64,000 nucleotides of DNA, taken from positions 1 through 64,000 of IMG/VR virus record IMGVR_UViG_3300034064_001073; one strand, written 5' to 3'. The notes beneath the pieces were generated by a model. The model ran no database searches. It had not been told where the DNA came from and saw only the letters and a program-made list of their open reading frames with translations. Shown one piece after another: positions 39,046-61,014 of this stretch (positions within the stretch are counted from its first letter, which is position 1; every line of letters begins with the position of its first letter). A program made the translations under genes and the position numbers. The stretch is from a virus.

Positions 39046-40332
39046 TTAGTAACCAACGACTGGCTTAGTACCTGGAACAACCGCAGCAAAGTTACCACCC
39101 ACTGTAGGATCGTAGACAGGACGTGCAATCTCAGGAGAGTAGTAGTTCTGATCGCAGAAGACATTCTTAAGCGTGATTGAACCCTGACCTTCGTTGTACA
39201 TGAAGATACCCCACTTCTCTGACCACTTCATCTTGAAGGTCTCAAAGTACTTGTCCTCCCACTCATCAGCAACAATGCCTGAGCCAACAATTAGAGCACC
39301 AAGTGACTTGCTATCGCAAAGAACGATATCGGTAAGCTTAGTAGCAGGATCGTAAGGCATAAAGCGTGAAGTGACAATGCGGAGACCAAACGGAAGACCA
39401 AGAGGAAGCTGAGGAGCAGCTGTAATGGCGTTAACGTTGAAGTCCTTAAGAGTAGCAGGATTGCCACCTGCAACAGGTGAAGCACCAAGCTGGCCGCGTG
39501 AATAACCCTTTGAAAGAACACCCTTAACGGCGTCAGGAACACCACTAACGTTAGCAGCCGAACCCGAATAGTTACCAAATAGATTGGAGCTACCGCTCTG
39601 CATGGCAAATGCACGAAGGACGGGGTCGCGGACAAACATAAGGTAAGTAAGAGGATGGCAGATTAGCGTATCAGGTGTAAAGCCTCTCTGAATGAGAAGG
39701 TGATATGCATTGAAAATATCATCCATGGTAAGGGTACCATTGGTCTTCATCGTGATGTCACGACCAGTCGTGATACCAAGAGCTGACTGCTGAGGATTGA
39801 CGTTATCAAATGCAGGAACGCTGATGTTCGTGATATGCTTGGCGATTTCGGTCTCCTTGCGGCGAGCGAAAGCACGACCAGCCTCACGGGCAAGGTAACC
39901 AAGGAGATTCCAATTGGAAGCCTTGATAGCCTCTTGCGTAAGGGAGATCATAACACCCCACTTGTCAATGGCGGCCGTAGCCATACCACCGCCAGTTGTC
40001 ACACGCTCTTCACGGTAACCTTCAAGCTCAGTGACCTTATGGACAGTGAAAGCTGAAAGGGCAGGAAGGCGGAACTCAGTGATACCATCCGGTGCAGGAA
40101 TGGTGTCAAGGAGTGGGGTAAGATTGAGCATAGGCTCCATCGGCTCCATCATAATCTCAACAATTGAGTGCTTGACCCAGGGCCCAAGCTCAGCTGATGT
40201 AATCGCGTCTTCGATTGAAAGACGTGAGTCGCTGCTATGGTCTGAGCCAGGAAGCCAACCGTTGTTCTTGATGAGCGCTGTAAGCTCACTCTGATCAGCA
40301 ATTTCTAGGTTCTTATGCTTTAGTCTTGACAT
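39046..40332 (-). CDS. major capsid protein (HK97 fold)
   Basis: 428 aa. KWGVMISLTQEAIKASNWNLLGYLAREAGRAFARRKE backbone helix and GFTPDTLICHPL. Strong AAGGAG RBS, followed by a terminator. Confidence 0.9.
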   Translation of the reverse strand: MSRLKHKNLEIADQSELTALIKNNGWLPGSDHSSDSRLSIEDAITSAELGPWVKHSIVEIMMEPMEPMLNLTPLLDTIPAPDGITEFRLPALSAFTVHKVTELEGYREERVTTGGGMATAAIDKWGVMISLTQEAIKASNWNLLGYLAREAGRAFARRKETEIAKHITNISVPAFDNVNPQQSALGITTGRDITMKTNGTLTMDDIFNAYHLLIQRGFTPDTLICHPLTYLMFVRDPVLRAFAMQSGSSNLFGNYSGSAANVSGVPDAVKGVLSKGYSRGQLGASPVAGGNPATLKDFNVNAITAAPQLPLGLPFGLRIVTSRFMPYDPATKLTDIVLCDSKSLGALIVGSGIVADEWEDKYFETFKMKWSEKWGIFMYNEGQGSITLKNVFCDQNYYSPEIARPVYDPTVGGNFAAVVPGTKPVVGY

Positions 40333-41879: not shown

Positions 41880-42695
41880 TTAGACTTTCACGTCTAGTGG
41901 GTTAAACTTTCCTGAAACAAAGCCAGAACGCACTTGTTGAACAAGATAGTTCTCAGCTTTATTTATATCATGATTTCGTAATTCTTTGTATTTACTAGCC
42001 ACTCTTCGCTCTACAGATGTCCAGTATTCTGGTGTAATATCCATTGCATCTTCAATGGTATTTACATCAAGCTTCTTACCAAGCTCTTTAGGCTCAGCAG
42101 AATCTTCAATGATAATCTCTTCTGACTCTGAACTATCGGCAACCTCAGTTGTCGCTTCTTCGGCCGAATCCATTGGGCCACTCATTTCTTCTTCAATTTC
42201 CTCACCGGAAGATTCACTTGGAATTTCCATGCCAGCAGTCTGAAGAGAGGAACCAAGTTGCCACTGCCACTTCTGATGCATATCAATACGCTCAGCTACG
42301 AAGTTTGCAACACCTTGCTCATTGGCAGCATTAGCCATGTCAAAGACATCCTTAAGCATAGCAAGCATCACCACATTCTTCTTGTACATATCAAGAGCAA
42401 GTTCACTTGCTTCAGTAGTCATAGAATCATCTTTGATTGATGCAGTCTCGACCATGTAAGTAAGAGAGTGAGGAAATGAACCAAGCTTGCGGATATTTTC
42501 AGCAAGTGGGTCTACTGAACTAGAGTAGATGTCATCATAGATATTTCCAAATAGCTCATGATACTGAGCAAAATCAGGGCCAGCAACATTCCAATGTGCA
42601 CGATGTGCAGTAGAGTACAGAGCAATTACATTGCTAAGCAGGCCTTTGAGGGCATCAGCCACTTGAGCTGTACTAGTTGTCATTTCAGTTTCCAT
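41880..42695 (-). CDS. dps: Dps-family ferritin with acidic/scaffold-like C-terminal extension
   Basis: 271 aa. AHWNVAGPDFAQYHELF..D..VDPLAENIRKLG (Dps ferroxidase residues) and HQKWQWQL, followed by about 120 extra residues. GGAGG RBS. Confidence 0.85.
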   Translation of the reverse strand: METEMTTSTAQVADALKGLLSNVIALYSTAHRAHWNVAGPDFAQYHELFGNIYDDIYSSSVDPLAENIRKLGSFPHSLTYMVETASIKDDSMTTEASELALDMYKKNVVMLAMLKDVFDMANAANEQGVANFVAERIDMHQKWQWQLGSSLQTAGMEIPSESSGEEIEEEMSGPMDSAEEATTEVADSSESEEIIIEDSAEPKELGKKLDVNTIEDAMDITPEYWTSVERRVASKYKELRNHDINKAENYLVQQVRSGFVSGKFNPLDVKV

Positions 42696-42762: not shown

Positions 42763-45513
42763 TTAGCCACCTATACCAGGAGCAGGATAAGCGCCGAGGG
42801 GAGGAGTCTCTTTCTTGCTCCACACAATAGGAGCCATAATCTTTTTTAGCTCAGACCTCTTCTTGACAGTTACTTCTTCAGTCTTGTCATATAGGCCATC
42901 CTCACCCATTTTAGCAATAGTAAGAATAGTAGCAGGATCTTCCTCTGATGCATCTACACTTAAACCAAGACCATGAGTAACAGTTCCTTTGCTATGCATA
43001 GCATCAATGACTCCATATCCTTCTTTCATTTCAGCTGCGTCGTCCTGCTCACCAAGTGAACCTGAACTAACACCAACTTCATTACCTTTGCTATCAAGAC
43101 GATAAGAAACAAAGTCACCTACAGCAAAAGTTGGCGTTGACGGAGTTGTATAAGTTTTCTCAGGAGTATAAGTATCTTCGACTGAAGACTTAACACTTTC
43201 CTCAATGGCAGTTTCAACAACTGGCTCATTGTAAACAAAGTCACCCATCACCCAAGGACCCTTAACTGAATCTTCAGTTCTCATACGTTCAATTTGTGCA
43301 GCTTTGGCATTTGCCCAGCTCTTGCCGCCATCGCCACCCCAAAGATCCCAAGCAATACGACCAGGAGAGGGAAAGCCTTCTTCGCCTTGGTTGAAGCCAG
43401 AAGCTTTCTTGTCAACCTCATGACGTGCAAAGAAACTCTTCATACGCATAACGGTAGAAGGAGAAAGCTCTTTCTTGTTCATAATGTCTCTAGCGCGCGC
43501 TACTCCAACGCCGGTACCACCGCGCTTGAACTCTGCACGCCACTCAAGAGCACGTTTTGCAGCTGACGCCATACCAGGTGTTGGAACAAATCCCTCAGCG
43601 GCATCATCAATTTCTGGAGCAAATAAGTCTTGAATTTCTTCACCAAACTCACTCTCGTCCATCTTGGACTTGCCGGCATCTTGCATACGTGCAAGCATCT
43701 TCTGGGCACGAGCCTGGATTGACTTAACCTTATCCTCAGCAAGACCCTTAACCTGACCAGCCCTAGCAATAGCATTACGAAGATGAGGAAGGTCAACCTT
43801 GCCATCCTCTCCTTTGTACGGTAAATGGCGAAGTGAGCGAGGTTTAGTTTTGCCCTCTTCATCCTTCTCGCCACCTGACTCAACATAAAAGAAAGAACTA
43901 TCTGGAAGATTGTTAACGTAAGCAGTCGACCAAACAGCATCGTCAATGCTGATTGTTTTTACCATCTCAGAGAACATCTCAGCCGACATATTATCGGCTA
44001 GCTCTACATTAAAGTTGTTAGCAAGGAACTCTTTAACAGAGTCTAGCAATGACTTACTATCAAGCTCAACTTTGGCAAGCTTCTCATCTGTGATAGCCTT
44101 ATCAGAGCGTAGCTCTTTAAGTTCTGACATTACCTCTACAGAAGCAATAGATTTTGACTTAATGTATTCGTCAACAATCGAAAGAATTTCCTTCTTATTG
44201 TCGTCTGATAGTACGCTTGGCATTTCTTGCTCCTCTTCATTGGTTGAGTTAGTTTGGTCTTCCATAGATTCTGTCTTGTTTGCTGAGACTAGTCCGTCTG
44301 GAATAACAGCAAATCTGCAGTAACCATTAGGCTCTATGGTTTGGGAAATAATTTTACAACGACTCTCACTGGCATGAAGAGCGCAATTGCCGCACTTAAC
44401 CCCAATGCTTAGATTTTCATTCTCTGGCCCACTTTCATAGCCAACCCAAATACCAGGAGCCTTATCAAGAGGTCCAACTTTACTAGCAAGAGTCATTAGT
44501 GAATCGGCTAGAGCCTTTTCCTCTTCTGAAAGTTGACTGTAAAGATCAATATAGTCATCTGCTATTTCAACTGGAACTGTAGCAACTGGACCGTTATCAA
44601 AGCTGGCCATAATCTCTGAGTCACTAATATCAGTAGCCGCATTTTTAAAGCAGTCGGTCACAACCATAGTAGTCTTGAAATTTTCTAGGTATTGCTGAAG
44701 GGCGTCGCCACCAACCTCTTTATAATTCATTACTCTAGCATGAACATCAGCAGGATGTGTAACATAAGCATAGCCACGATAGCGAAGACCGCTTGGGACG
44801 CCATACGCTTTGGTCCCATCAATATCGTCGCCAATGTCCCATTCCATCTCGTCAGTCTTGTAAGACTTACCGCTAATAGAATCGTAAAGATCATTAGGAG
44901 TCATCTCAACACTAACTGTAAGATAGCGCCCATCAAGGGTTTTCTCTACAGCCTCTGGATCTGTAACAAGTCCTTTGACAAGTACCCATCCAAGGCCCTC
45001 AAAATCCTCATCAGTCATCATTCCAGACTTGGCAAGCTTCTTCATATAGGGAGCCATAGCAACGTCAGGAGCCTTAAGTATAAGGCCATCCTTGATCATT
45101 GTAGAGCTAACATTATAGGCAGCCTTAGGGTTGTCTACCCAAGTTCCACCAATAGCACGACCAACAGCTCCAACCTCTCTATTCTCAATTTTCTTACCAT
45201 CAACAACAGCAACTTCCTTATGCATAGGCTTAATAGGGATGTTGTATGGATTAGTAAGTGTAGGAATTGCATCTTTCAAGTCAGATGGCATATAGATAAG
45301 GTTATTCTGAGTAGGTCTCATTCCATGAGTAACCTTTGTAAGAGTTACTAGACCAACCTTGTTTTCTGCCACACCATCACTGATAAAGTATTTGAAGTCA
45401 AGAAAGTGTGGGCTCTTCTTGTCCCAAACTTCATGGGTGAAATCGCCCTTAACACTACTAACAAAATAGTCCTGAACAATACCTTCTTGTAATAGTCTCT
45501 TACTTATCTTCAT
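42763..45513 (-). CDS. multidomain prohead protease/scaffold
   Basis: 916 aa between portal and capsid genes. N-terminal protease-like domain (KPMH, AVGRA, VTDPEAVEKTLDGRYLTVSV, YVTHPAD). Then a HiPIP-like CGNC..C..GYC, a WSTAYVNNLPDSSF domain, an RIAWDLWGG domain and an SH3/Tudor-like FAVGDFVSY domain. Confidence 0.75.
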   Translation of the reverse strand: MKISKRLLQEGIVQDYFVSSVKGDFTHEVWDKKSPHFLDFKYFISDGVAENKVGLVTLTKVTHGMRPTQNNLIYMPSDLKDAIPTLTNPYNIPIKPMHKEVAVVDGKKIENREVGAVGRAIGGTWVDNPKAAYNVSSTMIKDGLILKAPDVAMAPYMKKLAKSGMMTDEDFEGLGWVLVKGLVTDPEAVEKTLDGRYLTVSVEMTPNDLYDSISGKSYKTDEMEWDIGDDIDGTKAYGVPSGLRYRGYAYVTHPADVHARVMNYKEVGGDALQQYLENFKTTMVVTDCFKNAATDISDSEIMASFDNGPVATVPVEIADDYIDLYSQLSEEEKALADSLMTLASKVGPLDKAPGIWVGYESGPENENLSIGVKCGNCALHASESRCKIISQTIEPNGYCRFAVIPDGLVSANKTESMEDQTNSTNEEEQEMPSVLSDDNKKEILSIVDEYIKSKSIASVEVMSELKELRSDKAITDEKLAKVELDSKSLLDSVKEFLANNFNVELADNMSAEMFSEMVKTISIDDAVWSTAYVNNLPDSSFFYVESGGEKDEEGKTKPRSLRHLPYKGEDGKVDLPHLRNAIARAGQVKGLAEDKVKSIQARAQKMLARMQDAGKSKMDESEFGEEIQDLFAPEIDDAAEGFVPTPGMASAAKRALEWRAEFKRGGTGVGVARARDIMNKKELSPSTVMRMKSFFARHEVDKKASGFNQGEEGFPSPGRIAWDLWGGDGGKSWANAKAAQIERMRTEDSVKGPWVMGDFVYNEPVVETAIEESVKSSVEDTYTPEKTYTTPSTPTFAVGDFVSYRLDSKGNEVGVSSGSLGEQDDAAEMKEGYGVIDAMHSKGTVTHGLGLSVDASEEDPATILTIAKMGEDGLYDKTEEVTVKKRSELKKIMAPIVWSKKETPPLGAYPAPGIGG

Positions 45514-46150
45514 TAGCCTTCCTTATAATGACTTTGCTATTAGGATGATCAGGCGGTAAATCATAATATTTACTATCTAGGATTTTCCTATTATCTATTA
45601 TAGACTTACTACTTTGATTATATACCTGGTATGATTCTTCGCCATTATCCTTTAAAGCATTGAAAACACCCCAGTTATAACTTCTCATTCTTTCTGTCTC
45701 GTAGATAGTCATCATCCTATGACCAATCGTCTTAGCTGTATCTGTTATAGTGCTACCTTGTCGATTGCGCATCTCAATGTGTAGCTTGTCTATGAAAAAC
45801 TTCTGGACCTTTAACTGAAACTCTATGTTTCCTGTATGAGTCTCAGAAGTTAAATTAGATGAATCAGCATATTCAGAGTAGCCTTTTATGTAGGCCTTTA
45901 TGCTGTTGTCTTTAAGCATGATAGAGAAGCGCTCAAAAGCAGCGTCAACAGTAAACTCAGGATGAACTTCATAGTCAGCCTTTTCTCTTAGATGACTAAC
46001 TAACCCATTTACATCTTCTCTGTACTCGTCAAAGTCCAGAATCTTATCTGTTACTAGACTACCTGGACCACTTTTAGTACCATACTGGTTTGATGGCCTA
46101 ACAGCATTCGCATTAGCTTTGCCACTAGGCGGCGTTACTGAATTTTTTTT
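45500..46150 (-). CDS. MuF/gp7-like head morphogenesis domain; -1 frame continuation of the portal gene
   Basis: Stop-to-stop frame of 216 codons beginning inside the A10 run, with no ATG until 45919. RMMTIYETERMRSYNWG and DLPPDHPNS resemble MuF (R...IarTE...a.n.G; PP.HPNCRC). Confidence 0.65.
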   Translation of the reverse strand, partial: KKNSVTPPSGKANANAVRPSNQYGTKSGPGSLVTDKILDFDEYREDVNGLVSHLREKADYEVHPEFTVDAAFERFSIMLKDNSIKAYIKGYSEYADSSNLTSETHTGNIEFQLKVQKFFIDKLHIEMRNRQGSTITDTAKTIGHRMMTIYETERMRSYNWGVFNALKDNGEESYQVYNQSSKSIIDNRKILDSKYYDLPPDHPNSKVIIRKANEDK

Positions 46151-47679
46151 TTAATATCGCGTGAATCTTTCTCAGGTGCCACTGGCTTTTTTGCAATATT
46201 ACCAGCTGCTAGATCTCTAGCCTTTTGTAAATCACCAGAAGACATAGGAGTTTTATCGCTCTTAGCAGAAGTCTCAGCCAACGGAGACATTGGATTTGCT
46301 CCAAGTCTAAGAAGCTCTTGAGCCTCAGTAATCATCTTGTAATATGAATGATCCCAATCGTTATCTGTAGAGCTTGACATACCAATGCGGTCTCTTAACT
46401 CATCATGGCTAATTGCGCTATTCAACCATAACTGGATAGCCGCATTCTCTTTCTTTATTTGATTTTCAACATCTATTTCCTTGAATCTAAGAACAACTTT
46501 ATTCTCTGGTTCAAGCCAGTCAAAGCTATTGTCCTCTGAACTTTCTTGGAGCATAGGAACAATAAGATGAGCATAAATTTGTTCTTCAAGAACAAGCTGA
46601 TCACTTTTAACTGCATTAATAAGACTACTAGACATAGTAGCTGCAGTTGACCTATTAGCAGTATCACCTTCGCCAATGTCTACCGTTGATAGACCAAGCG
46701 CGGCAAGAACACGCTTCTTGAAATAATCAAGATAGCTTTCAGCTCTAAGTGAGCGTCCTTCCGCTCCAATCATTTTAATCTCATGGCGCTCAGGAGTAAC
46801 AAAGAAACCTTCTGGTGGTTGATTATTAATAATCTCAGTAACCATACTAATTTCATCTCTTCCGTCTGGAAGTATAGTTGCAGGCATTGCTTCTGTTCCA
46901 ATCTTATACTGGACAATAGGAAAGATTGTTTGATGTAGTAGAACTTCTACGTCAGTCTCAATTCGACGTAAAGCCTTGATATCTTCAATTGCTGCACTGC
47001 ATCTTGGGGTACCAACAATAAAGCCTTCAAGCTTATTAACATGAAAATGAATAATTTCATTAGGCTCATATATAGTAGTAGGACGAGTATTCTCGGTCCA
47101 GTCTTCTTCGCTGTATTGTCGATACTTTATGGGCTGTTTAAGGTCGTTGACCTTAACCTGGATCATACTGGTAGGAAGTATATGAAGTGAGCTAATTGGG
47201 GCTATTTTGCGCCCCTTAGAGTCAGTTCTAGTATAGCCTCCAGATGTCTTGTCATTGCGCTTAACAAGAACAAAACAATTGCTATATCTAATAATGTTCT
47301 TAGCTATATCAGTTATAAACTGGCGAGGTGTAGTGCGACTAACATAGCAAACTTCTTTAAAGCGCCGCTCTATGTACTCTACAAGATCAGGGTCTTTTCC
47401 TATAACCTCATACCCCTCTTTCATAAACAAAGAAAGCTTCTTGTCAAAGCTAATCTGTAAGTAAGCCTCAATCGTAGCAACTTTATCTATTTCTTTGAAG
47501 TCATGCTCTAGCTTTTGCCAGTCATTCATAAAGTACGGACGAGTAGTCCTATAGTTAAATACTGGATCCTTAGTCTTTTCCAAGCTAGGTCCAGGCATCT
47601 TACTCTCAGCATCATCTATTACTTTAATCGATGAAGCAAGATTCTTAAGATTAATAACTTGTGCTTTTAATTTAAACAT
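46135..47679 (-). CDS. portal protein
   Basis: 514 aa. IIRYSNCFVLVKR, EIIHFH..GFIVGTP, YLDYFKKRVLAALGLS..GEGDTANRSTA, AISHDELRDRIG. Lies between terminase and protease. Confidence 0.85.
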   Translation of the reverse strand: MFKLKAQVINLKNLASSIKVIDDAESKMPGPSLEKTKDPVFNYRTTRPYFMNDWQKLEHDFKEIDKVATIEAYLQISFDKKLSLFMKEGYEVIGKDPDLVEYIERRFKEVCYVSRTTPRQFITDIAKNIIRYSNCFVLVKRNDKTSGGYTRTDSKGRKIAPISSLHILPTSMIQVKVNDLKQPIKYRQYSEEDWTENTRPTTIYEPNEIIHFHVNKLEGFIVGTPRCSAAIEDIKALRRIETDVEVLLHQTIFPIVQYKIGTEAMPATILPDGRDEISMVTEIINNQPPEGFFVTPERHEIKMIGAEGRSLRAESYLDYFKKRVLAALGLSTVDIGEGDTANRSTAATMSSSLINAVKSDQLVLEEQIYAHLIVPMLQESSEDNSFDWLEPENKVVLRFKEIDVENQIKKENAAIQLWLNSAISHDELRDRIGMSSSTDNDWDHSYYKMITEAQELLRLGANPMSPLAETSAKSDKTPMSSGDLQKARDLAAGNIAKKPVAPEKDSRDIKKKIQ

Positions 47680-49954
47680 TGTCTACGTTTGCTCCTAATG
47701 CAACTCGACGCCAGAACTCTAGGCTTTCACCTTTGCTTATTATAGACGATTTTGCTCTGTCACAATTTATAAGATTAAATCTACTGTCTGTGGCCGGATT
47801 TATTAGATATTTAATAGGAGTGGTTCTCTGAAAACCTTTATTTCTGTTCTGTCTTGCCTTTTCCTCGTAAACAGGTTGACTATTAAAGTATTCCTTCATT
47901 GGGAAATCACTATTAGGATCTGGATCCCAAGGATCCCAAGGACTCTCATTAGTTGAGTTGCCATTCTCATCTTTCATAGGTATACAAGGCTCAATGCCCT
48001 TAGAGGTAGCAGCCTTATAGAGGCCAAGAGCAAAAGATAGTAACTGAGAGACTGCCATAATTTTTGTGCAAAGAACAATATTAGAATCAGTCTTCTCACC
48101 AAATAAAGTCTTAATAACATCCGAACCATATTCTACAATTTTTGTTTGAGCCCCAACATATTCAATAAAGTCATAGATTGCAGTTTTAATCATTTCAAGA
48201 GAGTCCAACGCATCCCCTCGGCCCATCAAAGGATTGGTAATCGTTGATAGAAATTTCATTCCATTAGAGTTCAATGCTCCCTCCAAGGCTTTGCCAACCT
48301 CTTGTTGATCTATGCCTATTTCTCCATTGGCGTTATTAAAATATTTCTGACTCCATTTAGTCAGCGCACTTATTTTGTTATCTTCTCCTGTTCCTGAGTT
48401 TACCCAGTTTGACAGTTCTTCTGTAGTAAATCCATACTGCTTCCCAGCCTTATCAATGTCCTGAATACTTACAAGACTATTAATTGTGCATAGTGCGTAG
48501 TTTGGAAGGGGAGAGATATTGGCACGAATACTCATTTGTAACAAGTTGAGTAGAGGCTCAATAATTCCTCTCATAACTAAATCTCTTAGAAAGTTTAGAC
48601 CAAAGTTTGCATTTGCCGAGAACACTTCCGCCCAAGTATAGACTAAAAGACCACCAAGCGTAGCAATAACAAATAGTAGCTCTAACGGACACAGAGATCC
48701 AAGTCTTAGTAGGGAGCAGTAGTTAGCTTTTAGATGGAACTCAAGATCACTAGCAAATCTTATCTTGTCCCATAGAGCTTTCGTAATACGTAATTGCTCT
48801 TTCATTTTCAATTCAAGATCTACACCAAAAACAAAATCGCTGCCTTTGAATAGATCACCTGGACCTTTCATATTTCCAAGATCGTCTTTCAGCTTTTGCC
48901 ATTCGCCGCCAAAGCACTCATAGCATCCGTCCCAACCACGAATTAAGTCACCAAGATCTTTAGCTGGTTCTCCAATTGCTCTTGCCTTGAGCTTAGAAGG
49001 CTCCTTGCCTCTAAATAGAACGTCTATGGCACTATTTTGCTTGTCTATTCCATTAAGAGTACTCTCTATGCTGTGGACCACTTCCCTGGTCTTCTCAGCC
49101 TCATTAAACAAAGGTATAAGGCCAACTTTCTGAGAGACATTATCTTCACTAAGTTTTATTTCGTTCTGAGCTAAGGAAGTTTCTAGTCCAAACATATCTC
49201 TGAAAATATCAAACTCTTCATAGACTTTCCATCTCTTATCTTCTCCTAGATTGTTCAACCAGTCAGAGGTCATCTTGCCTAAAGTTTCTTTAGGCTTAGA
49301 GTCATAGTCTTTTTTAATTGTTTTTTGAGCTTGGTATGCAAAAGCAAGAGCAACAAGCGGGCCAAACTTAGTTGACATATCTTCGTCTTCTGTTATGCCA
49401 GACATTGCGTCTTTCTGTAACTCTTTAGTTGTAGAGTTTATTTGGTTTTTTGCTTTTAATTCTGTGTAAAGCTTTGTATGCTTTTTTAACTCTTGTATCT
49501 CTTGATAGGTTAACTTGCCTTTTTGATGATTAGGAAAAAGAAAATCTGCGACTAAGCATTCGTCATGATCCTCACTAGTATAAGGAACACTATAGTTTAT
49601 ATCCTTTAACCTATCAGCAGTCTCTGCAAGAAACTTATCTAAAGTTGCTGCTTGTATAGCTGCTTCTTCTCTGTTTTCTTTTCTAAGGGCTTCAACTGCA
49701 AGAGAACTAATGTCTCTTGCTTTACCATTGTAAAGCTCAGAATCTAGTATCTGGTTGTATTCTTTGTTTGAGTTTAGATTAGATAGTAAGTCTTGTATCA
49801 GACTATTCAGCTCTGTTGCAGAGAGTTTATTTACGTCCCTGTTCTCTACTTTATTACCAGGCCCTTCATCTCTGCTTACTTCTTCTAGTTGAATACCTTG
49901 GTTCGTGCTATTACTTTGAATAAAGAACTTTTTGTTTAAAGGAAGCTTTTCCAT
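47672..49954 (-). CDS. hypothetical protein (helical, with Cys motifs and hydrophobic segments)
   Basis: 760 aa ORF in tight operon packing. No motif recognised. Confidence 0.6.
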   Translation of the reverse strand: MEKLPLNKKFFIQSNSTNQGIQLEEVSRDEGPGNKVENRDVNKLSATELNSLIQDLLSNLNSNKEYNQILDSELYNGKARDISSLAVEALRKENREEAAIQAATLDKFLAETADRLKDINYSVPYTSEDHDECLVADFLFPNHQKGKLTYQEIQELKKHTKLYTELKAKNQINSTTKELQKDAMSGITEDEDMSTKFGPLVALAFAYQAQKTIKKDYDSKPKETLGKMTSDWLNNLGEDKRWKVYEEFDIFRDMFGLETSLAQNEIKLSEDNVSQKVGLIPLFNEAEKTREVVHSIESTLNGIDKQNSAIDVLFRGKEPSKLKARAIGEPAKDLGDLIRGWDGCYECFGGEWQKLKDDLGNMKGPGDLFKGSDFVFGVDLELKMKEQLRITKALWDKIRFASDLEFHLKANYCSLLRLGSLCPLELLFVIATLGGLLVYTWAEVFSANANFGLNFLRDLVMRGIIEPLLNLLQMSIRANISPLPNYALCTINSLVSIQDIDKAGKQYGFTTEELSNWVNSGTGEDNKISALTKWSQKYFNNANGEIGIDQQEVGKALEGALNSNGMKFLSTITNPLMGRGDALDSLEMIKTAIYDFIEYVGAQTKIVEYGSDVIKTLFGEKTDSNIVLCTKIMAVSQLLSFALGLYKAATSKGIEPCIPMKDENGNSTNESPWDPWDPDPNSDFPMKEYFNSQPVYEEKARQNRNKGFQRTTPIKYLINPATDSRFNLINCDRAKSSIISKGESLEFWRRVALGANVDNV

Positions 49955-50424: not shown

Positions 50425-52563
50425 TTATTTAATAGTTCGACCACTTGGTCGTTGGTAGTTATGCCGTGAGTTAAACACTGGAGCTATTGCTTGTCCCATG
50501 TTTCCCTTGCCGTCTCTAGTAACAATCATATCTCTTTCCCAAGCTCTTCTATCTAAGTCACTGTAGTGTTCTGTTGTTTTCTGGTAAGGACCAGAACCAT
50601 TTTTTCTACCTTCTATAGCAGAAGTCCTTTCATTTTGCAAGTGTTTAAGTAATTCTCCTCCTGTTAATTTCCTAGCATGAGGATCTTGTAGCTGCTCACC
50701 AAGCATTGAATGTCCAACAGTCTCTGTTATTCCAAAGCTAGAAATCATACCCTTAGACATAGCAAGAGGACCTTCCTCTATGGTAAAGGCTACTAAGCTT
50801 AGCATGAAGGCGTCTAAGGCGTGATCACCAATGCTTGTGTTGTCTTGTCCAAACACAGGAGTTCCATTTGGTTGACGAGATTTAATTATATAGTTTAGAA
50901 GTTGCTTTCTTAGCAAGTCATCCTCAAAGGAAAACTTAACAATTCTATCTTCAAATCTACGGACTGCATTTTCTACTAGAAAAGGTTTGGCTGGATGTTC
51001 AATAACTCTACCAGTTGAAGGCTCTCTGATTGAGACCTTACTTCCAAAGTCATAAGCTTTAATTCTTCTTTGAACATTAAACTCATAAGTCCCTGGCTTC
51101 TGCTGAGAGGACCACATTTTTAGAGTCTCCCATTGAGTAGCACCGTGTCCTTTGTCAACATAGATATGTTGTGGTTGCCAAAAAGTAAGAAGTTCTGTTA
51201 TCTTCTGAAGACCTTGTAGCTGTGTAAAGTTTTGCTTTGGAACATTTATAATTTCCATTACTTGTAACCCAATCTGAGGATGAAATCCTGTAATACATAT
51301 CCAAGTACCAAAGCTAGTATTCCAGTCAACTCCTAAACTATATCTAAAGCCAGGAAGTTGGCCGTCTATCTTCGCTTCGCGCATTTGCGCATAAGTATAT
51401 CCATCCATAGCGCTAGTAACTAATGGAGCAGCAAACACGCCATCGGCATTGCTAATAAACATTGCCATAACTTCTTGTAGCCAACCGTCACTCGTATATT
51501 CTCTACGCATCTCATTGCGTAATGATTTCCAGTTAATCTTTGTCTGGGCAAACGGCGTTTCATCAATAACTGCTGTTGGAAAATAGAATTCTTTCCAGTC
51601 TGGAGCTTCTTGGCACCATTCATAAAACTTACTACGAAGACCACTTGGAGTAGATGCAACTCTTATTAGACAATCACTGTGAGACTGCGCAATCGGTAAG
51701 ATTGTTGTAAAGTCTTTTTCAGTCATATAGTCAACCTCATCTAGAACTATAACGTGCGCGTCCTGACCACGAACAGCACTAGCACCATTACTACCAGTCG
51801 TGAAGCCAGAAATTATAGCTCCATTATCAAGTCTTAGTTGATGATAAGGAGATTGCTTATATCTAAATTCTTTTTTTAAACTAATATTGCTATTTAGCAA
51901 TTCAAGAATTCTGTTAAATATAGCTGTAACTTGCGAGTCAAAAGGACAACAAATAAGAATTTTAATTCCATTCACGTTCTCTTTTATCTCATCGTCAAAG
52001 TATTCTCTAATTCTAGTAAAGGCATGGAATAGTATCTCAATAGCAAGCGCGTCTGATTTACCTGAACGTCTTCCAAACCTAAAGACCTTTTTCTTACTCT
52101 GGCAACGAAGAGCAATCTCTTGATGTGCTCTAGGTTTCCATCCAAACATTTTATTAGCAAAGGTAACTGGATCTGTATTAATAATTAATGCGTCTTTCTC
52201 TTCAGGAGAAAGTTCATTAGCAAACTCCGAGTATTGCTCTAGATAGTCCTTTGGAATCAAAGGACAGCTAATTTGAAAGGCATGAGTTGGAAAAGCTTTT
52301 GGATCAGCTTTAACTTTCCTTTTACTTTCAATGGGATGAGTTGGGTAGTCTTTTTTATATTTTTCAATATGAGAAATCTGACAATTCTCGCAACCTGAAG
52401 AACACTTTGCACCAGTCTTTGTTTTTGTTTTCAGCCCATAATTATTAATATAATCTCGGACAATAGTAGAAGCAAAAGGAGTCCAGTAGTCTACATAAGA
52501 CACGTCTGAACTTTCTGTTTCTACTTTTTTATATAGATTTTCTATTGCAAGTATTTCATTCAT
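50425..52563 (-). CDS. terL: terminase large subunit
   Basis: Walker A FGRRSGKS, Walker B VIVLDEVD, coupling motif ASTP, nuclease LGVDWN..YVDKGHG..DHALDAF. Likely start is ATG 52563, 1 nt after the upstream stop (ORF track start 52593). Confidence 0.95.
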   Translation of the reverse strand: MNEILAIENLYKKVETESSDVSYVDYWTPFASTIVRDYINNYGLKTKTKTGAKCSSGCENCQISHIEKYKKDYPTHPIESKRKVKADPKAFPTHAFQISCPLIPKDYLEQYSEFANELSPEEKDALIINTDPVTFANKMFGWKPRAHQEIALRCQSKKKVFRFGRRSGKSDALAIEILFHAFTRIREYFDDEIKENVNGIKILICCPFDSQVTAIFNRILELLNSNISLKKEFRYKQSPYHQLRLDNGAIISGFTTGSNGASAVRGQDAHVIVLDEVDYMTEKDFTTILPIAQSHSDCLIRVASTPSGLRSKFYEWCQEAPDWKEFYFPTAVIDETPFAQTKINWKSLRNEMRREYTSDGWLQEVMAMFISNADGVFAAPLVTSAMDGYTYAQMREAKIDGQLPGFRYSLGVDWNTSFGTWICITGFHPQIGLQVMEIINVPKQNFTQLQGLQKITELLTFWQPQHIYVDKGHGATQWETLKMWSSQQKPGTYEFNVQRRIKAYDFGSKVSIREPSTGRVIEHPAKPFLVENAVRRFEDRIVKFSFEDDLLRKQLLNYIIKSRQPNGTPVFGQDNTSIGDHALDAFMLSLVAFTIEEGPLAMSKGMISSFGITETVGHSMLGEQLQDPHARKLTGGELLKHLQNERTSAIEGRKNGSGPYQKTTEHYSDLDRRAWERDMIVTRDGKGNMGQAIAPVFNSRHNYQRPSGRTIK

Positions 52564-52564
52564 A

Positions 52565-53467
52565 TTAGTAAGATAGCATTGAAGACGTCCCATATATAGC
52601 AGTTGAACCTGAGTATCTTGCTTTTGGAGCGCTCATCATATAACTCTCATTTCCTATAGCTTTCATTGCACTGAATCTAGAATTTTCCATTGCATTTATA
52701 GAACGTTGCCTAATGCTTGCGCCCATTGAGCTAGACATACCTGGAGTTGGACCTCTATTCCAAGAAATACCGCCCATTCTGCCAGACCTAATATACTGTG
52801 CACCTTGGTTTCTAACATCAAAAATCTTAAAAGCAGTATAGCCTGCAGCAGCAGCAACTGCGGCTCCAGTTAATCCAACCATAGGATTAAGCAAGGCCCC
52901 AGCAATAACTTTGTTTTGAACAAGCCCAGTAGCAATGCCAAGAGCTGTATTGCCTACGCCTCCGACTATACCTGCTTGCCTATAGCCTGATTTAAAGTCG
53001 CCAATAGCACCGTGCGCCATAAGAGCAGGAGCAATAATCGTAGATAGACCTCCCATCTTGACTAACTGTTTGTTTAGCCAGCCATCTCCAACTTGATCAA
53101 GAAGTTTAAAGCCATGATATCGGGCACCATGAAAAAACTTTGAAATGCCACTCGAATTGCTATGTGCCGCAGAGATATAGTTTTTCCAACCTTGGTAAGC
53201 GTCATCTAAATTATTAGCCACTTGCCAAAAAGCTTCTTCAGCCCTATATACTGGATGTACATATCCAGTTGAGCCTAAGGCTCTGCCAAAGAAAGAGTCA
53301 ATAAACCCTGATGCTTTACCACTTTGGTCAAAACCAGTAACTCTACGGTTTAAACCAAAGTCATTGATTACTGAACCTAAGCCTGCAAAAAAACCTCTAG
53401 TAGTTAAGTCTAGTTCGTTTTGAACAAAACCACTATTATAGATTCTTGAACCGTAGTTCCTATTTAC
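52565..53467 (-). repeat. duplicated 903-bp 3' gene segment, copy B
   Basis: VNRNYGSRIYNSGFVQNELDLTTRGFFAGLGSVINDFG...MLSY. Same length as copy A, roughly 70% aa identity by eye. Confidence 0.9.
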
Positions 53468-58665: not shown

Positions 58666-61014
58666 TTATCCTCTTCTTAGCGCACTCAAGGCAAGTGTCA
58701 AATTACCATCATCATTGTACTGCCCCGGCCTAGATCTACTTCTAGTAGGCTTAAGACTTGGGTTTTGGAAGTACAACTCATCTGCGTCATTTAATCCAAC
58801 CATAGAAGGATTAGTCATTCTAACTCTATTAGATTGATCTGCCTGCATCTGTGCTTCTGCGCTGATGTTTTGTTTTGTTGCTCCAGCTAGTGCATTAATA
58901 GGGTGGTCAGCAGGTGCTCCATACGCAGAAGCTTTAGCTGCTGCCCCTACAAATCCAACTGCAGCACCTGCGCCACCTAATCCAAACATTAATGCATTAT
59001 CAGACATAAAACCTGTATTCATTGCAGGTCGAATAGGCACGCCAGCAGGAGCTGCAGGAGCTGTTGCAGGTTGTCCAGGTTTCGCAGGCTTAGCAGCAGG
59101 AGTAACAGTGTGAATGCCAGGTTTTGCAGGATCAAATTCATATGATCTATTAATTCTATGTGCACCTCCAAAGAAATTGTCTTTCTTATACTGCTGAAGA
59201 ACTTGCCGCTCATTCTGTTCAGCGGGCGTCATTCTTGCTGGTAAATTACCTTTCTGAGTTTTCTTTGGGGCTAATTGCTCTAATCTTTCATTGACAGTTG
59301 GAGTAGCAACATCTTTTTCTCTGTAAGGAGTCAATACATCTTTCTCATATGAATTCGCTGCATATCTACCAAGATAAACTGGAGCACCTGCCGCCATACC
59401 AGCTGCACCGGCACCAATTCTACCTATGTCTTGAAATAGAGAACCTGCCATATCTTTTTGGCCTGGCTCAATCATTGCATCTTTTTCTGTCTGGCTAAAA
59501 CGTCTTCTTAAGTCGCTAACTTGCTGATTCTCTGCAGTTGGTTTAAGTTTTGCTTCCTGTTTAAGTAACTCCTGCTTGTTTGATTGTAAAGCACCTATTT
59601 CATCTGTTGCTGCAGCTTCTGCTTTCTGAGCAACTGAATGCGCATTATAGTCTTCTACAAACTGATCAGCTCCTTTCCCAGTTGGAACGGGAGTAGGGGG
59701 AGTAGGAAGATTATACACACCAAAAGAGCCATGATTAGCAGGATAGACACCACGGGACTTAGCTTGCTGAGTTTGTTGACGAGTTGCAGGAGGCGCTGAG
59801 TATTTTATTCCAGCAGCCGCTTGTGCTTTCTCCTCAGGAGTTCCATTCAGTTGCGCATTCAGTCTGGCTCTTTCAGCTCTTGCTTGTGCTGGAGTCATGC
59901 TTGCAAAAGGATTAGTACTTGTTGCTCCTTTAAAATTCTCTGGATTCTTAGGGTCTAATCTTTTGTCTAAGTTTGCCATCTCTTCTAGTCTCTCATCATA
60001 AACGTCATCAGCAACAGGCTTTGCTCCTGCTTTCACACTGTCATCATAAGCCATTTTTTTTTCACCATTTTTCCATCTTTGATCTCTGAGACTTTGGAGT
60101 CTTTCATTCAAACTATGTCTATTGGTGCTTAATTCAGTATGAATAGCATCAAACTCAGTCTGCAAAGCGGGATCAGTCAATGCAGCTTTTACATCTGCTT
60201 GCGGTGATCGCCCAGTCATTCCTACTGTTTTTGCAATTTCGCCTCTTCTAACTCTTAGTTGCCTAGCTCTTTCTCTCTCTGCAGCTTGTTGAGCTTTTGT
60301 TAGTTGTGGCATTCCCCCAAGAGTGGTCTCTAGTCCTGTAATTTCTGCCTCTAGCCTAGTATCCTCTGCAGCTAAACGAGGACCCTCCGATTGACGTACA
60401 ATTTGAGGTCCAGTTGCTGGCTTTGCGGGAGTTCCTTGCCATTTTCCAACCAAAGCCTCTTGCTGTTCTCTTGCGGCAGTCTGTTTTTTTGCAGCCTCGT
60501 CTATTGCTGTGTCAATCCTAGTTACAGCTTCTTTATTTCCTTTTACTGCTGTTCTTGCTTGTCTTTGTCTTTGTACTGCCATAGTAGGAGTAGCAGTTAC
60601 TGTGTCCATTACAGAATCTGTATAAGCTTCAAAGTCGTCAACATTTCCACCTGCAACTGTTTGAAATCCTTGTCTCAGCGCACCAAAAAGAGTCTTTGGT
60701 CTGTTTGGATTAACTGCGTCATAGGCTTTTAATCCGTCAGGGGTCATCATTGAGCGACCAATTGCTCTTAAACCGTAGTCAGCACCCTGAGCTGCAATAC
60801 CAACTGCTCCTCCTACCATAGCTCCAGTAGCCGCTGCTCCTACTCTGCCTGCAACAGGAGTTTCTCCTAGGTATTCATCCTCTTCTGGATTATAACTATA
60901 GGCTCCCTTGATACCACCAGCAATAGCACCTACACCACCAATTCCTAAAGTCCCACCAACGTGGGAAGCAGCTCCACTCATTGACTTGAAAAAATTAACA
61001 ATTGCGTTTGCCAT
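58666..61014 (-). CDS. Ala/Gly/Pro-rich coiled-coil protein with glycine zippers (putative internal/ejected virion protein)
   Basis: 782 aa. GxxxG arrays near both termini (GGTLGIGGVGAIAGGIKG; FGLGGAGAAVGFVGAAA). TAATG overlap with the upstream gene. Confidence 0.5.
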   Translation of the reverse strand: MANAIVNFFKSMSGAASHVGGTLGIGGVGAIAGGIKGAYSYNPEEDEYLGETPVAGRVGAAATGAMVGGAVGIAAQGADYGLRAIGRSMMTPDGLKAYDAVNPNRPKTLFGALRQGFQTVAGGNVDDFEAYTDSVMDTVTATPTMAVQRQRQARTAVKGNKEAVTRIDTAIDEAAKKQTAAREQQEALVGKWQGTPAKPATGPQIVRQSEGPRLAAEDTRLEAEITGLETTLGGMPQLTKAQQAAERERARQLRVRRGEIAKTVGMTGRSPQADVKAALTDPALQTEFDAIHTELSTNRHSLNERLQSLRDQRWKNGEKKMAYDDSVKAGAKPVADDVYDERLEEMANLDKRLDPKNPENFKGATSTNPFASMTPAQARAERARLNAQLNGTPEEKAQAAAGIKYSAPPATRQQTQQAKSRGVYPANHGSFGVYNLPTPPTPVPTGKGADQFVEDYNAHSVAQKAEAAATDEIGALQSNKQELLKQEAKLKPTAENQQVSDLRRRFSQTEKDAMIEPGQKDMAGSLFQDIGRIGAGAAGMAAGAPVYLGRYAANSYEKDVLTPYREKDVATPTVNERLEQLAPKKTQKGNLPARMTPAEQNERQVLQQYKKDNFFGGAHRINRSYEFDPAKPGIHTVTPAAKPAKPGQPATAPAAPAGVPIRPAMNTGFMSDNALMFGLGGAGAAVGFVGAAAKASAYGAPADHPINALAGATKQNISAEAQMQADQSNRVRMTNPSMVGLNDADELYFQNPSLKPTRSRSRPGQYNDDGNLTLALSALRRG

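What the first reader, a model, noticed from the sequence alone, without database searches (positions are those of the whole stretch)
45500..46160. Portal and a MuF-like domain joined only by a -1 shift in an A10 run
Seen: the portal ends GAT ATT AAA AAA AAA ATT CAG TAA (A10 at 46143-46152). The -1 frame has a TAA at the start of the A run, then stays open for 216 codons (NSVTPPSGKANANAVRPSNQYGTK...PPDHPNS), with no ATG in the first 77 codons. A shift inside the A run is therefore the obvious way to translate that stretch. Hairpins are possible 9-12 nt downstream (GCCGC-CTA-GTGGC at 46121-46133; GCCTAGTGGC/GCTGTTAGGC at 46096-46130). Inference: programmed -1 ribosomal frameshifting or transcriptional slippage would give a 514-aa portal plus a minority 726-aa portal-MuF fusion, setting a sub-stoichiometric MuF level in the portal ring. 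Alternative: a one-base homopolymer sequencing error in a true A11 fused gene.
Basis: partly seen in the sequence, partly recalled or inferred. Interest (0 to 1): 0.7.

Follow-up and report, generated by a model that had tools for sequence, protein, structure and literature searches.

The report
Poly-A slip joins portal to MuF
In this uncultured lake phage the portal gene ends just after a strictly conserved run of ten A's, and a start-less MuF-like head domain follows one base out of step, so slippage at the run most likely makes both a plain portal and a minority portal-MuF fusion, a gene pairing for recoding that I could not find described.

Summary
The 514-aa portal (46135-47679) ends two codons after an A10 run (46143-46152). 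A 216-codon -1 frame (45500-46150) follows, with no ATG, GTG or TTG before codon 78.

It is not a sequencing error. T-A10-T is identical in 16 distinct relatives from independent assemblies (portal 75-96% identical). Flanking DNA has diverged strongly (pS 0.44-0.97). Contigs from four sequencing runs show no indel at the run.

The start-less stretch is coding (dN/dS 0.03-0.11). The whole -1 ORF is colinear with the C-terminus of more distant portals of about 710-750 aa, which are single ORFs and lack the A run.

The extension is MuF/gp7-like by fold, motif and gene position. The window protein itself has no Pfam hit.

No well-placed conserved RNA stimulator exists, and the third Lys codon is never AAG. 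I therefore favour RNA-polymerase slippage (about 0.55) over a ribosomal -1 shift (about 0.3); recoding of either kind is about 0.87. No RNA or protein data were available.

This scan has reported the same arrangement before on other DNA, including this phage clade. I found no published report of it.

The parts
46135..47679 (-). Portal gene, zero frame: 514 aa plus the TAA stop. It ends ...DIKKKIQ*.
   Evidence: ORF list. PHROG 9232 portal, E 8e-37. Pfam PF04860 at 5.7e-6, below the curated cut-off. 308 homologues.
46143..46152 (-). A10 slip site (T10 on the + strand). It carries the three AAA Lys codons K510-K512 plus the first A of the Ile codon, and contains the in-frame heptamer A_AAA_AAA (46144-46150).
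   Evidence: Sequence. T-A10-T is invariant in 16 distinct sequences. It is the only run of 10 or more in the 79.9-kb contig. Contigs from four runs show no indel.
46151..46153 (-). TAA that closes the -1 frame at the 5' edge of the run, so the -1 frame can be entered only within the run.
   Evidence: Stop-to-stop ORF map. The same TAA is present in all relatives; the preceding codon is ATT, ACT, GTT or TCT, always ending in T.
45500..46150 (-). -1 frame ORF: 216 codons stop-to-stop plus the stop. 214 of them (46144 down to 45503) would be added to portal residues 1-512 to give a 726-aa fusion.
   Evidence: dN/dS is 0.03-0.11 in codons 3-46 and 0.006-0.14 in codons 78 to the end. It is colinear with the C-terminal ~220 residues of single-ORF homologues.
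46073..46099 (-). Conserved motif RPSNQYGTK (family consensus RPxNQHGTK) at the start of the extension, 15 codons after the run and 52 codons before any start codon.
   Evidence: Present in the -1 ORF of all relatives. Present at the equivalent place in fused portals P0018-P0038 and in L023, L024 and L026.
45503..46024 (-). Folded MuF/gp7-like head-morphogenesis domain (extension residues about 41-214), ending in the PPDHPNS motif.
   Evidence: AlphaFold2 mean pLDDT 82.9, with about 90 or more from residue 41. Foldseek against BFVD hits 'head morphogenesis' and 'minor capsid' proteins, E from 3.6e-7 to about 1e-2, probability about 1.0 for the top rows. Nearly invariant residues are R143, E151, N157, P197, P198, H200 and N202. 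PF04233 hits the C-termini of homologues below threshold.
46096..46130 (-). Local RNA hairpin downstream of the run. It is doubtful as a stimulator.
   Evidence: In the minimum-energy fold of the window, z = -0.8. Lost in L005, L007 and L008, and weak in clade 2. 76% of cells are paired in alignment A1, but both arms encode conserved residues, and the helix starts 13-15 nt after the heptamer.
42763..45513 (-). Next head-module gene (916 aa). Its ATG overlaps the last codons of the -1 ORF.
   Evidence: ORF list and sequence. PHROG 2859, unknown function. The overlap suggests the -1 ORF is translated as part of the operon (inference).

Best explanation
The A10 run is a selected recoding site. 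Standard expression gives the 514-aa portal. In a fraction of transcripts RNA polymerase slips on the T10 template and adds one A (A11). Normal translation then reads ...DIKKK-NSVTPP... and continues for 214 more residues.

The result is a 726-aa portal with three added parts: a disordered linker, the RPxNQ(H/Y)GTK motif and a MuF/gp7-like head-morphogenesis domain. Transcripts with A9 or A12 end after a few codons and give near-normal short portals.

One gene therefore supplies the dodecameric portal ring with mostly plain subunits and a few subunits that carry MuF covalently. This replaces the non-covalent portal-gp7 recruitment of SPP1 and the all-subunit fusions of more distant relatives.

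Shown here: the anatomy, the conservation of the run, purifying selection on the start-less ORF, and colinearity with fused homologues. Inferred: that slippage happens, that it is transcriptional, its efficiency, and the stoichiometric role. Recoding of either kind: about 0.87. The transcriptional route specifically: about 0.55.
For: 1. T-A10-T is identical in the window and 15 other distinct sequences. They come from IMG/VR contigs of different metagenomes and from a GenBank MAG contig, and fall into at least three lineages with portal identity 75-96%. Upstream DNA is too diverged to align without gaps. Synonymous divergence in the ORF is 0.44-0.97.
2. Lys codons elsewhere in the window's portal are AAA 17 and AAG 24, so three AAA in a row in every lineage is not codon bias.
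3. Short-form portals down to 52% identity all keep KKK at this place: K510-K512 are invariant.
4. Logan contigs of four runs from four studies cross the run with no indel.
5. In the -1 ORF, codons 3-46 have no start codon in most lineages and give dN/dS 0.03-0.11.
6. The -1 ORF residues 2-214 align to residues 491-713 of the single-ORF homologue P0018, directly after the portal part (residues 6-496). The same holds for seven other fused homologues.
7. The fused forms seen as DNA (L023, L024, L026, L033) have no A run longer than 6 at the junction.
8. For the transcriptional route:
 - The run is 10 long, and E. coli RNA polymerase needs at least 8 A's (PMC6260861).
 - No consensus RNA structure was predicted upstream or downstream across the clades; the one local hairpin is only partly kept and poorly spaced. 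No conserved upstream purine-rich motif is visible in the alignment.
 - The third Lys codon is never AAG, although A_AAA_AAG is the far better ribosomal shift site in E. coli (PMC5009743).
 - The same signature (A11, no stimulators) was shown to be transcriptional in Citrobacter tssM1, at about 20% efficiency (PMC4256274).
Against: There is no RNA or protein evidence. No RNA run was listed as a holder, and only contigs could be laid, not raw reads.

The run also contains a correctly phased A_AAA_AAA heptamer, and its phase is the same in every lineage. A ribosomal -1 shift therefore predicts the same products and much of the same conservation.

A partly conserved hairpin exists downstream: 76% of cells are paired and there are a few double changes.

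Which polymerase transcribes the late genes is unknown, as is its slippage behaviour on A10. DNA of the more distant short-form lineages (P0012, P0015, P0016) could not be fetched, so their run length is inferred from KKK only.
Confidence: 0.55

Rival explanations
1. Same two products, but made at the ribosome. This would be a programmed -1 frameshift on the in-frame heptamer A_AAA_AAA (tandem tRNA-Lys slippage), or structure-independent sliding on the poly(A) stretch, with homogeneous A10 mRNA.
For: The heptamer is correctly phased (A at 46150, then AAA, AAA), and this phase is kept in all lineages (KKK invariant). A hairpin at 46096-46130 is partly kept: 76% of cells are paired and three pairs show double changes. 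Reporter work shows that poly-A sites shift in proportion to length, whatever the route: 7 A's 10%, 9 A's 40%, 11 A's 63% (PMC3711429).
Against: The hairpin starts 13-15 nt after the heptamer; from my own knowledge, known -1 stimulators sit about 5-9 nt away. It is not better than shuffles (z = -0.8). It is lost in L005, L007 and L008 and weak in clade 2, and both arms encode conserved residues. No conserved upstream purine-rich (SD-like) motif is visible. A_AAA_AAA is a poor site compared with A_AAA_AAG in E. coli (PMC5009743), yet AAG never appears at the third Lys codon in 16 sequences. The two A's and one A outside the heptamer are also invariant, in an otherwise hypervariable linker.
Confidence: 0.3
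2. DNA-level phase variation. Replication slippage switches the run between A10 and A11, so subpopulations of phage carry either a split or a fused gene.
For: Homopolymers are slippery for DNA polymerase too (PMC3711429). Contigs hide rare variants, so a minor A11 genotype cannot be excluded.
Against: Every assembled genotype is A10: 19 IMG/VR loci, one MAG contig, the window, and Logan contigs of four runs. Not one A9 or A11 was seen. A switching locus would be expected to be caught in the other state at least sometimes.
Confidence: 0.04
3. Two ordinary genes. The MuF-like protein is made only from an internal start (ATG at codon 78, giving 139 aa), and the portal is never extended.
For: Gene callers have produced such truncated proteins: P0121 at 179 aa, P0122 at 128 aa. 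ATG78 is kept in clade 1 and in most of clade 2.
Against: There is strong purifying selection and a family-wide motif upstream of any start. The full-length ORF is colinear with fused homologues from its second residue. The internal Met is lost in L017. The sequence upstream of ATG78 shows no obvious GGAGG-type Shine-Dalgarno motif on reading. The AlphaFold2 model places helices from residue 42, so the fold begins well before residue 78.
Confidence: 0.03
4. An artefact or decay: either a one-base homopolymer error in a true A11 fused gene, or a recent inactivating frameshift.
For: Homopolymers are a classic source of indel errors. The fused state exists in relatives.
Against: The same A10 appears in some 20 independent assemblies from different samples and pipelines. 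The zero-frame stop is kept shortly after the run in two different layouts, 2 codons and 12 codons. A true fused gene would have no reason to keep three AAA codons. A dead downstream ORF would not show dN/dS below 0.1 at pS up to 0.9.
Confidence: 0.01

Closest known systems
Citrobacter rodentium and Yersinia pseudotuberculosis tssM: transcriptional frameshifting on a poly-A run (Gueguen et al. 2014, PMC4256274)
   Same: A run of 10-11 A's sits just before a premature stop in a structural ring component of a phage-related machine. There is no nearby SD-like or RNA-structure signal. Slippage restores the C-terminal domain, giving a short and a long form. In tssM1 both forms and their ratio are needed, and the long form is about 20%.
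   Different: There the mechanism and both proteins were demonstrated; here nothing has been measured. There the long form is the canonical protein and the split is rare among homologues. Here the split is fixed across a whole phage clade. The gene is a portal, not a T6SS membrane-complex protein.
dnaX tau/gamma recoding: Thermus thermophilus A9 RNA-polymerase slippage; E. coli A_AAA_AAG -1 ribosomal frameshift (reviewed in PMC5009743; dnaX genes with 10 A's in PMC3711429)
   Same: One gene gives two products with a common N-terminus at a set ratio for a multi-subunit assembly, through a poly-A site. The A9-A10 version works at transcription.
   Different: In dnaX the shifted product is the shorter one; here the shift lengthens the protein by a whole domain. 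The E. coli type has an SD-like element and a stem-loop 6 nt downstream, and neither is present here.
Programmed frameshifts in tailed-phage structural genes: lambda G/GT-type tail assembly chaperones (Xu, Hendrix and Duda 2004, cited in PMC7302621 and PMC5009743); T7 capsid 10A/10B (from my own knowledge)
   Same: A phage late structural gene has a conserved slip site near its 3' end. It makes a minority C-terminally extended form that is incorporated or acts at low copy number.
   Different: Those are ribosomal shifts on short heptamers, in tail-chaperone or capsid genes. I found no portal recoding in the 2016 recoding review (zero occurrences of 'portal' in the 300,000 characters held of 449,034), in the GeneTack survey, or in six full-text searches.
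Constitutive portal-MuF fusion genes: Microbacterium phage clusters EA3, EA5, EA8 and EB (PMC7302621); Bacillus phages vB_BceM_WH1 and Edson; metagenomic proteins P0017-P0120
   Same: Same domain order, portal then MuF-like, in one polypeptide. The window's two ORFs are colinear with these proteins.
   Different: Those are single ORFs, so every portal subunit carries MuF, and the four fused forms seen as DNA have no A run at the junction. Here the domains are in different frames, and only slipped products are fused.
SPP1 gp6 portal and gp7 (MuF family)
   Same: The gene order is portal then MuF. gp7 is brought into the procapsid in a few copies by binding the portal (PMC6316719). A low-frequency covalent fusion would give the same outcome.
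   Different: SPP1 gene 7 has its own start and is a separate protein. A profile comparison of alignment A3 with the gp7 sequence found no match.

Membership tests
Programmed transcriptional slippage site (Thermus dnaX / tssM1 type) | Homopolymeric A or T run long enough for RNA:DNA hybrid realignment (at least 8-9) | tested here: met
   A10 at 46143-46152. E. coli RNA polymerase shows no slippage below 8 A's (PMC6260861).
Programmed transcriptional slippage site (Thermus dnaX / tssM1 type) | Adding one nucleotide joins two long ORFs into a product with homology across the junction | tested here: met
   A11 would join portal residues 1-512 to 214 residues. Both parts are colinear with the single-ORF homologues P0017-P0038.
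Programmed transcriptional slippage site (Thermus dnaX / tssM1 type) | The run is conserved at nucleotide level among diverged homologues despite synonymous alternatives | tested here: met
   16 of 16 distinct sequences have T-A10-T, at pS 0.44-0.97. Lys codons elsewhere are AAA 17 and AAG 24.
Programmed transcriptional slippage site (Thermus dnaX / tssM1 type) | Heterogeneous mRNA (A11, A12 and so on) from a homogeneous DNA template | not testable with these tools
   No RNA run was listed as a holder, and only contigs could be laid.
Programmed -1 ribosomal frameshift site (E. coli dnaX / IS / G-GT type) | X_XXY_YYZ heptamer in the zero frame | tested here: met
   A_AAA_AAA at 46144-46150, in the same phase in all relatives.
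Programmed -1 ribosomal frameshift site (E. coli dnaX / IS / G-GT type) | Conserved downstream stem-loop or pseudoknot about 5-9 nt after the heptamer | tested here: not met
   RNAalifold finds no consensus helix near the site. The window's hairpin starts 13-15 nt away, has z = -0.8, and is lost or weak in 7 of the 9 relatives that were folded.
Programmed -1 ribosomal frameshift site (E. coli dnaX / IS / G-GT type) | Upstream SD-like stimulator | tested here: not met
   The upstream 60 nt are hypervariable. No conserved purine-rich motif is visible and no structure is predicted. This was judged by reading the alignment; no motif search was run.
Phage_Mu_F / SPP1 gp7 head-morphogenesis domain (PF04233) | Match to the Pfam model at the gathering threshold | tested here: not met
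   The window's extension has no Pfam or PHROG hit. Three fused homologues hit PF04233 below the 29.6-bit cut-off: P0113 at 28.1 bits (E 3.8e-6), P0051 and P0038.
Phage_Mu_F / SPP1 gp7 head-morphogenesis domain (PF04233) | Fold like that of annotated MuF or head-morphogenesis proteins | tested here: met
   The AlphaFold2 model has pLDDT 82.9. In BFVD Foldseek nearly every named hit is 'Phage head morphogenesis domain', 'Minor capsid protein', 'Head morphogenesis protein' or similar, with probability about 1.0. No solved structure matched.
Phage_Mu_F / SPP1 gp7 head-morphogenesis domain (PF04233) | C-terminal PP.HPN(C) motif, and gene position directly after the portal | tested here: met
   PPDHPNS is at the C-terminus; P197, P198, H200 and N202 are nearly invariant. 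Relatives L023-L026 have PPFRYNC. The gene order is TerL, unknown ORF, portal, this ORF, 916-aa gene, then the major head protein. That PP.HPNC typifies MuF is from my own knowledge.
Phage_Mu_F / SPP1 gp7 head-morphogenesis domain (PF04233) | Binds the portal and is packaged in the capsid in a few copies | not testable with these tools
   Known for SPP1 gp7 (PMC6316719). No complex prediction was run.
Tailed-phage portal protein | Match to portal profiles, and position in the head module | tested here: met
   PHROG 9232, E 8e-37. Pfam PF04860 at 5.7e-6, below the cut-off. TerL lies upstream.
Constitutive portal-MuF fusion gene | Both domains in one uninterrupted ORF | tested here: not met
   The zero-frame stop is at 46135-46137, and the MuF-like part is in the -1 frame. 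The same holds in all close relatives.

The most novel reading that the evidence does not exclude
Poly-A slippage from portal into MuF may be a general, so far undescribed class of programmed recoding in tailed phages. It would have arisen repeatedly from constitutive portal-MuF fusions. It would act as a genetically encoded dial: run length would set slippage frequency, and that would set how many of the twelve portal subunits carry a MuF domain (and, in other lineages, MuF-linked cargo) into the capsid. In this clade the plain portal would also lack the family-wide RPxNQHGTK motif, so the two subunit types would differ in more than the MuF domain.
Probability: 0.35. Interest if true: 0.8.

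Novelty: new member of a known kind. Interest (0 to 1): 0.6.

Why it matters
Recoding in phage structural genes is a textbook theme for tail chaperones and some capsid proteins, but not for portals.

If this site works as inferred, it shows how a phage can build a symmetric 12-mer in which only a few subunits carry an internal head protein. That would solve the 'few copies per capsid' problem of MuF/gp7 proteins through gene expression rather than binding affinity.

It also has practical weight. Gene callers systematically mis-annotate these loci as a short portal plus a truncated hypothetical protein (P0121-P0126), so part of the MuF domain is missing from databases.

The site is simple and directly testable with reporters and virion proteomics. 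The family offers natural controls, because fused, split and MuF-less portals all exist.

Tried and rejected
DNA for the more distant short-form portals P0012, P0015 and P0016 could therefore not be fetched.
- Substitute scans with P0015 and P0012 in viral contigs, and with P0012 in metagenome contigs, found only relatives of 31-39% identity.
- A pattern scan of IMG/VR for nine or more A's (A9) followed by the NQHGTK-coding motif returned only the 19 contigs already known. An alignment-based rescan added nothing.
- blastn of the region against 50,697 phage records gave no match.
- No RNA holder was listed among the sequencing runs, so expression and mRNA heterogeneity could not be examined. 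All four runs that were laid are contigs, which cannot show minority A11 reads.
- hhalign of alignment A3 against a single SPP1 gp7 sequence gave nothing useful: probability 0.5%, and the only match fell in the portal part.
- A profile search of the PDB hit only a portal protein. Foldseek against the PDB had no hit at E of 0.001 or better.
- The whole-library phmmer search with the extension gave only 14 hits, so no deep profile could be built.
- The fused 726-aa protein could not be handed to tools as one sequence, because a -1 shift has no reference form. The two parts were analysed separately.
- Complex prediction was not used, because the report does not depend on non-covalent binding.
- The A9 run at 60054-60062 was checked as a possible second slip site. 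It lies in frame inside an uninterrupted 782-aa ORF.

Full report
**What is there.** The genes lie on the minus strand. A 514-aa ORF (46135-47679) is a portal protein: PHROG 9232 at E 8e-37, and Pfam PF04860 below its cut-off. It sits in a head module with the large terminase at 50425-52593 and a major head protein at 39046-40332.

The portal ends GAT ATT AAA AAA AAA ATT CAG TAA, with A10 at 46143-46152. The -1 frame has TAA at 46151-46153. It then stays open for 216 codons, to 45500. The first ATG, GTG or TTG in that frame is codon 78.

One extra A in the mRNA, or a -1 ribosomal slip on A_AAA_AAA, would join portal residues 1-512 to 214 further residues, giving 726 aa.

An A10 somewhere in 64 kb is not improbable in itself: 71 of 100 shuffles have at least one. 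It is, though, the only homopolymer of 10 or more in the 79.9-kb contig.

**Not an error, not decay.** A portal search found two kinds of homologue.
- Relatives of 53-91% identity are all 507-520 aa.
- Most of those at 47% identity or less are about 700-760 aa.

I fetched 19 IMG/VR loci of the short kind from different metagenomes, plus one GenBank MAG contig. Every one has T-A10-T, the TAA at the run's edge, and a 212- or 216-codon -1 ORF. That makes 16 distinct sequences including the window.

They fall into at least three lineages.
- In clade 1 the zero-frame stop comes 2 codons after the run.
- In clade 2 (about 76% portal identity) it comes 12 codons after.
- The codon before the run is ATT, ACT, GTT or TCT.
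- The 60 nt upstream cannot be aligned without gaps.

Synonymous divergence in the downstream ORF is 0.44-0.97. Elsewhere in the window's portal, Lys is coded AAA 17 times and AAG 24 times. The short-form proteins down to 52% identity keep KKK here; K510-K512 are invariant. Logan contigs from four runs in four studies cross the run without any indel.

A sequencing error, a recent inactivating mutation or a switching A10/A11 genotype would not produce this picture.

**The start-less stretch is coding and belongs to the portal polypeptide.**
- Codons 3-46 of the -1 ORF lie before any candidate start in most lineages. They give dN/dS of 0.03-0.11.
- They include the motif RPSNQYGTK (46073-46099). 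Its consensus, RPxNQHGTK, recurs at the same place in the long single-ORF portals.
- By BLASTP the window's portal aligns to residues 6-496 of P0018, and the -1 ORF residues 2-214 align to residues 491-713. Seven other fused proteins behave the same way.
- tblastn with the fused P0017 covers both ORFs in all the loci.
- The fused forms seen as DNA have no A run longer than 6 at the junction.

The simplest history is a constitutive fusion that was converted, in this freshwater clade, into a slip-dependent one. That direction is my inference.

**What the extension is.** The window's extension has no Pfam or PHROG hit. Four lines of evidence point to the MuF / SPP1 gp7 family.
- Three fused homologues hit PF04233 (Phage_Mu_F) just under threshold at their C-termini.
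- The family alignment has nearly invariant R143, E151, N157 and a terminal PP.H.N motif.
- An AlphaFold2 model (pLDDT 82.9) has residues 1-33 disordered, followed by a helical bundle and a small sheet.
- In BFVD that model matches proteins named head morphogenesis domain, minor capsid protein or head morphogenesis protein. E runs from 3.6e-7 to about 1e-2, with probability about 1.0 for the top rows.

The PDB holds nothing similar. The position directly after the portal is the canonical MuF position. I therefore call the extension MuF-like by fold, motif and synteny, not by the curated sequence model.

**Mechanism.** Both routes give the same proteins. I favour RNA-polymerase slippage for four reasons.
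1. The full ten-base run is invariant, not only the heptamer, and it sits in a linker where everything else varies.
2. The third Lys codon is never AAG, although A_AAA_AAG is much the better ribosomal site in E. coli (PMC5009743).
3. There is no well-placed conserved stimulator.
 - RNAalifold finds nothing near the site either downstream or upstream.
 - It is lost in L005, L007 and L008 and weak in clade 2.
 - It starts 13-15 nt after the heptamer.
 - Counting pairs gives 76% paired cells and a few double changes. However, the structure was taken from one of the sequences, and both arms encode conserved residues.
4. The same signature (A11, no stimulators) was shown to be transcriptional in Citrobacter tssM1. 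There the long form is about 20%, and both forms are needed (PMC4256274).

Published figures give a sense of scale. E. coli RNA polymerase needs at least 8 A's to slip (PMC6260861). In reporters, 7, 9 and 11 A's gave 10, 40 and 63% shifting (PMC3711429). A10 could thus yield anything from a few per cent to tens of per cent, depending on the polymerase.

The ribosomal route remains a serious rival at about 0.3, because the heptamer is correctly phased in every lineage.

**Function (inferred).** In SPP1, gp7 binds the portal and enters the procapsid in a few copies (PMC6316719). In some Microbacterium and Bacillus phages the two are one gene (PMC7302621). A slip-dependent fusion would put MuF on only some of the twelve subunits. 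Nothing here measures that ratio.

**Novelty.** Several searches turned up no report of portal recoding.
- Six full-text searches.
- The 2016 recoding review, which has no occurrence of 'portal' in the 300,000 characters held of 449,034.
- The GeneTack survey.

The library is open-access only, so this is absence of evidence.

This scan's own earlier notes report the same arrangement on other DNA, both in this roughly 175-kb phage clade and in unrelated lineages. Those are unchecked AI notes. I re-derived the result for this clade independently, before reading them, and I did not test the other lineages.

The mechanism is a known kind and the gene pair is new, so I class it as a new member of a known kind.

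**Limits.**
- There are no RNA or protein data.
- The fused protein could not be analysed as one chain.

Noticed in passing
window 46073-46099 (-); L029-L032 near 3695-3760: The motif RPxNQHGTK is conserved across hundreds of portal homologues at the start of the C-terminal extension. It also occurs in 498-509-aa portals that end about 40 residues later, with no MuF-like match in the 2.3 kb held downstream. In the window's clade only the slipped product would carry it. Its role is unknown.
   Followed up: partly
window 41880-42695 (-): A 271-aa ORF between the 916-aa gene and the capsid genes matches PHROG 3636 'DNA binding protein' at E 6e-22 over its first 150 residues. It is an unusual occupant of a head module.
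   Followed up: no
window 60054-60062 (-): The second-longest homopolymer in the contig is an A9 on the coding strand. It lies in frame inside an uninterrupted 782-aa ORF (58666-61014), with no frame break, so it is not an obvious second recoding site.
   Followed up: yes
window 47672-49954 (-): A 760-aa ORF between the terminase and the portal overlaps the portal start by 8 nt. It has no Pfam or PHROG match.
   Followed up: no
proteins P0042, P0050, P0100, P0102: Some fused portal homologues are 834-898 aa. Of the three scanned against Pfam (P0042, P0050, P0100), two (P0042, P0100) carry a further zinc-ribbon-like C-terminal module. JGI names two of them (P0100, P0102) 'ribosomal protein L37AE/L43A'. 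The portal C-terminus therefore seems to be a general attachment point for extra domains in this family.
   Followed up: no
proteins P0121-P0126, P0129: Public gene calls for the MuF-like ORF are truncated at internal starts (128-179 aa). P0123, P0125 and P0126 are only 30-43% identical to the window's ORF, which hints that further split lineages exist whose DNA I could not fetch.
   Followed up: partly
window 45500-45513 (-): The ATG of the next gene (916 aa) overlaps the last codons of the -1 ORF by 14 nt. This layout is typical of translational coupling and would tie that gene's start to ribosomes that have entered the -1 frame or reinitiate there.
   Followed up: no
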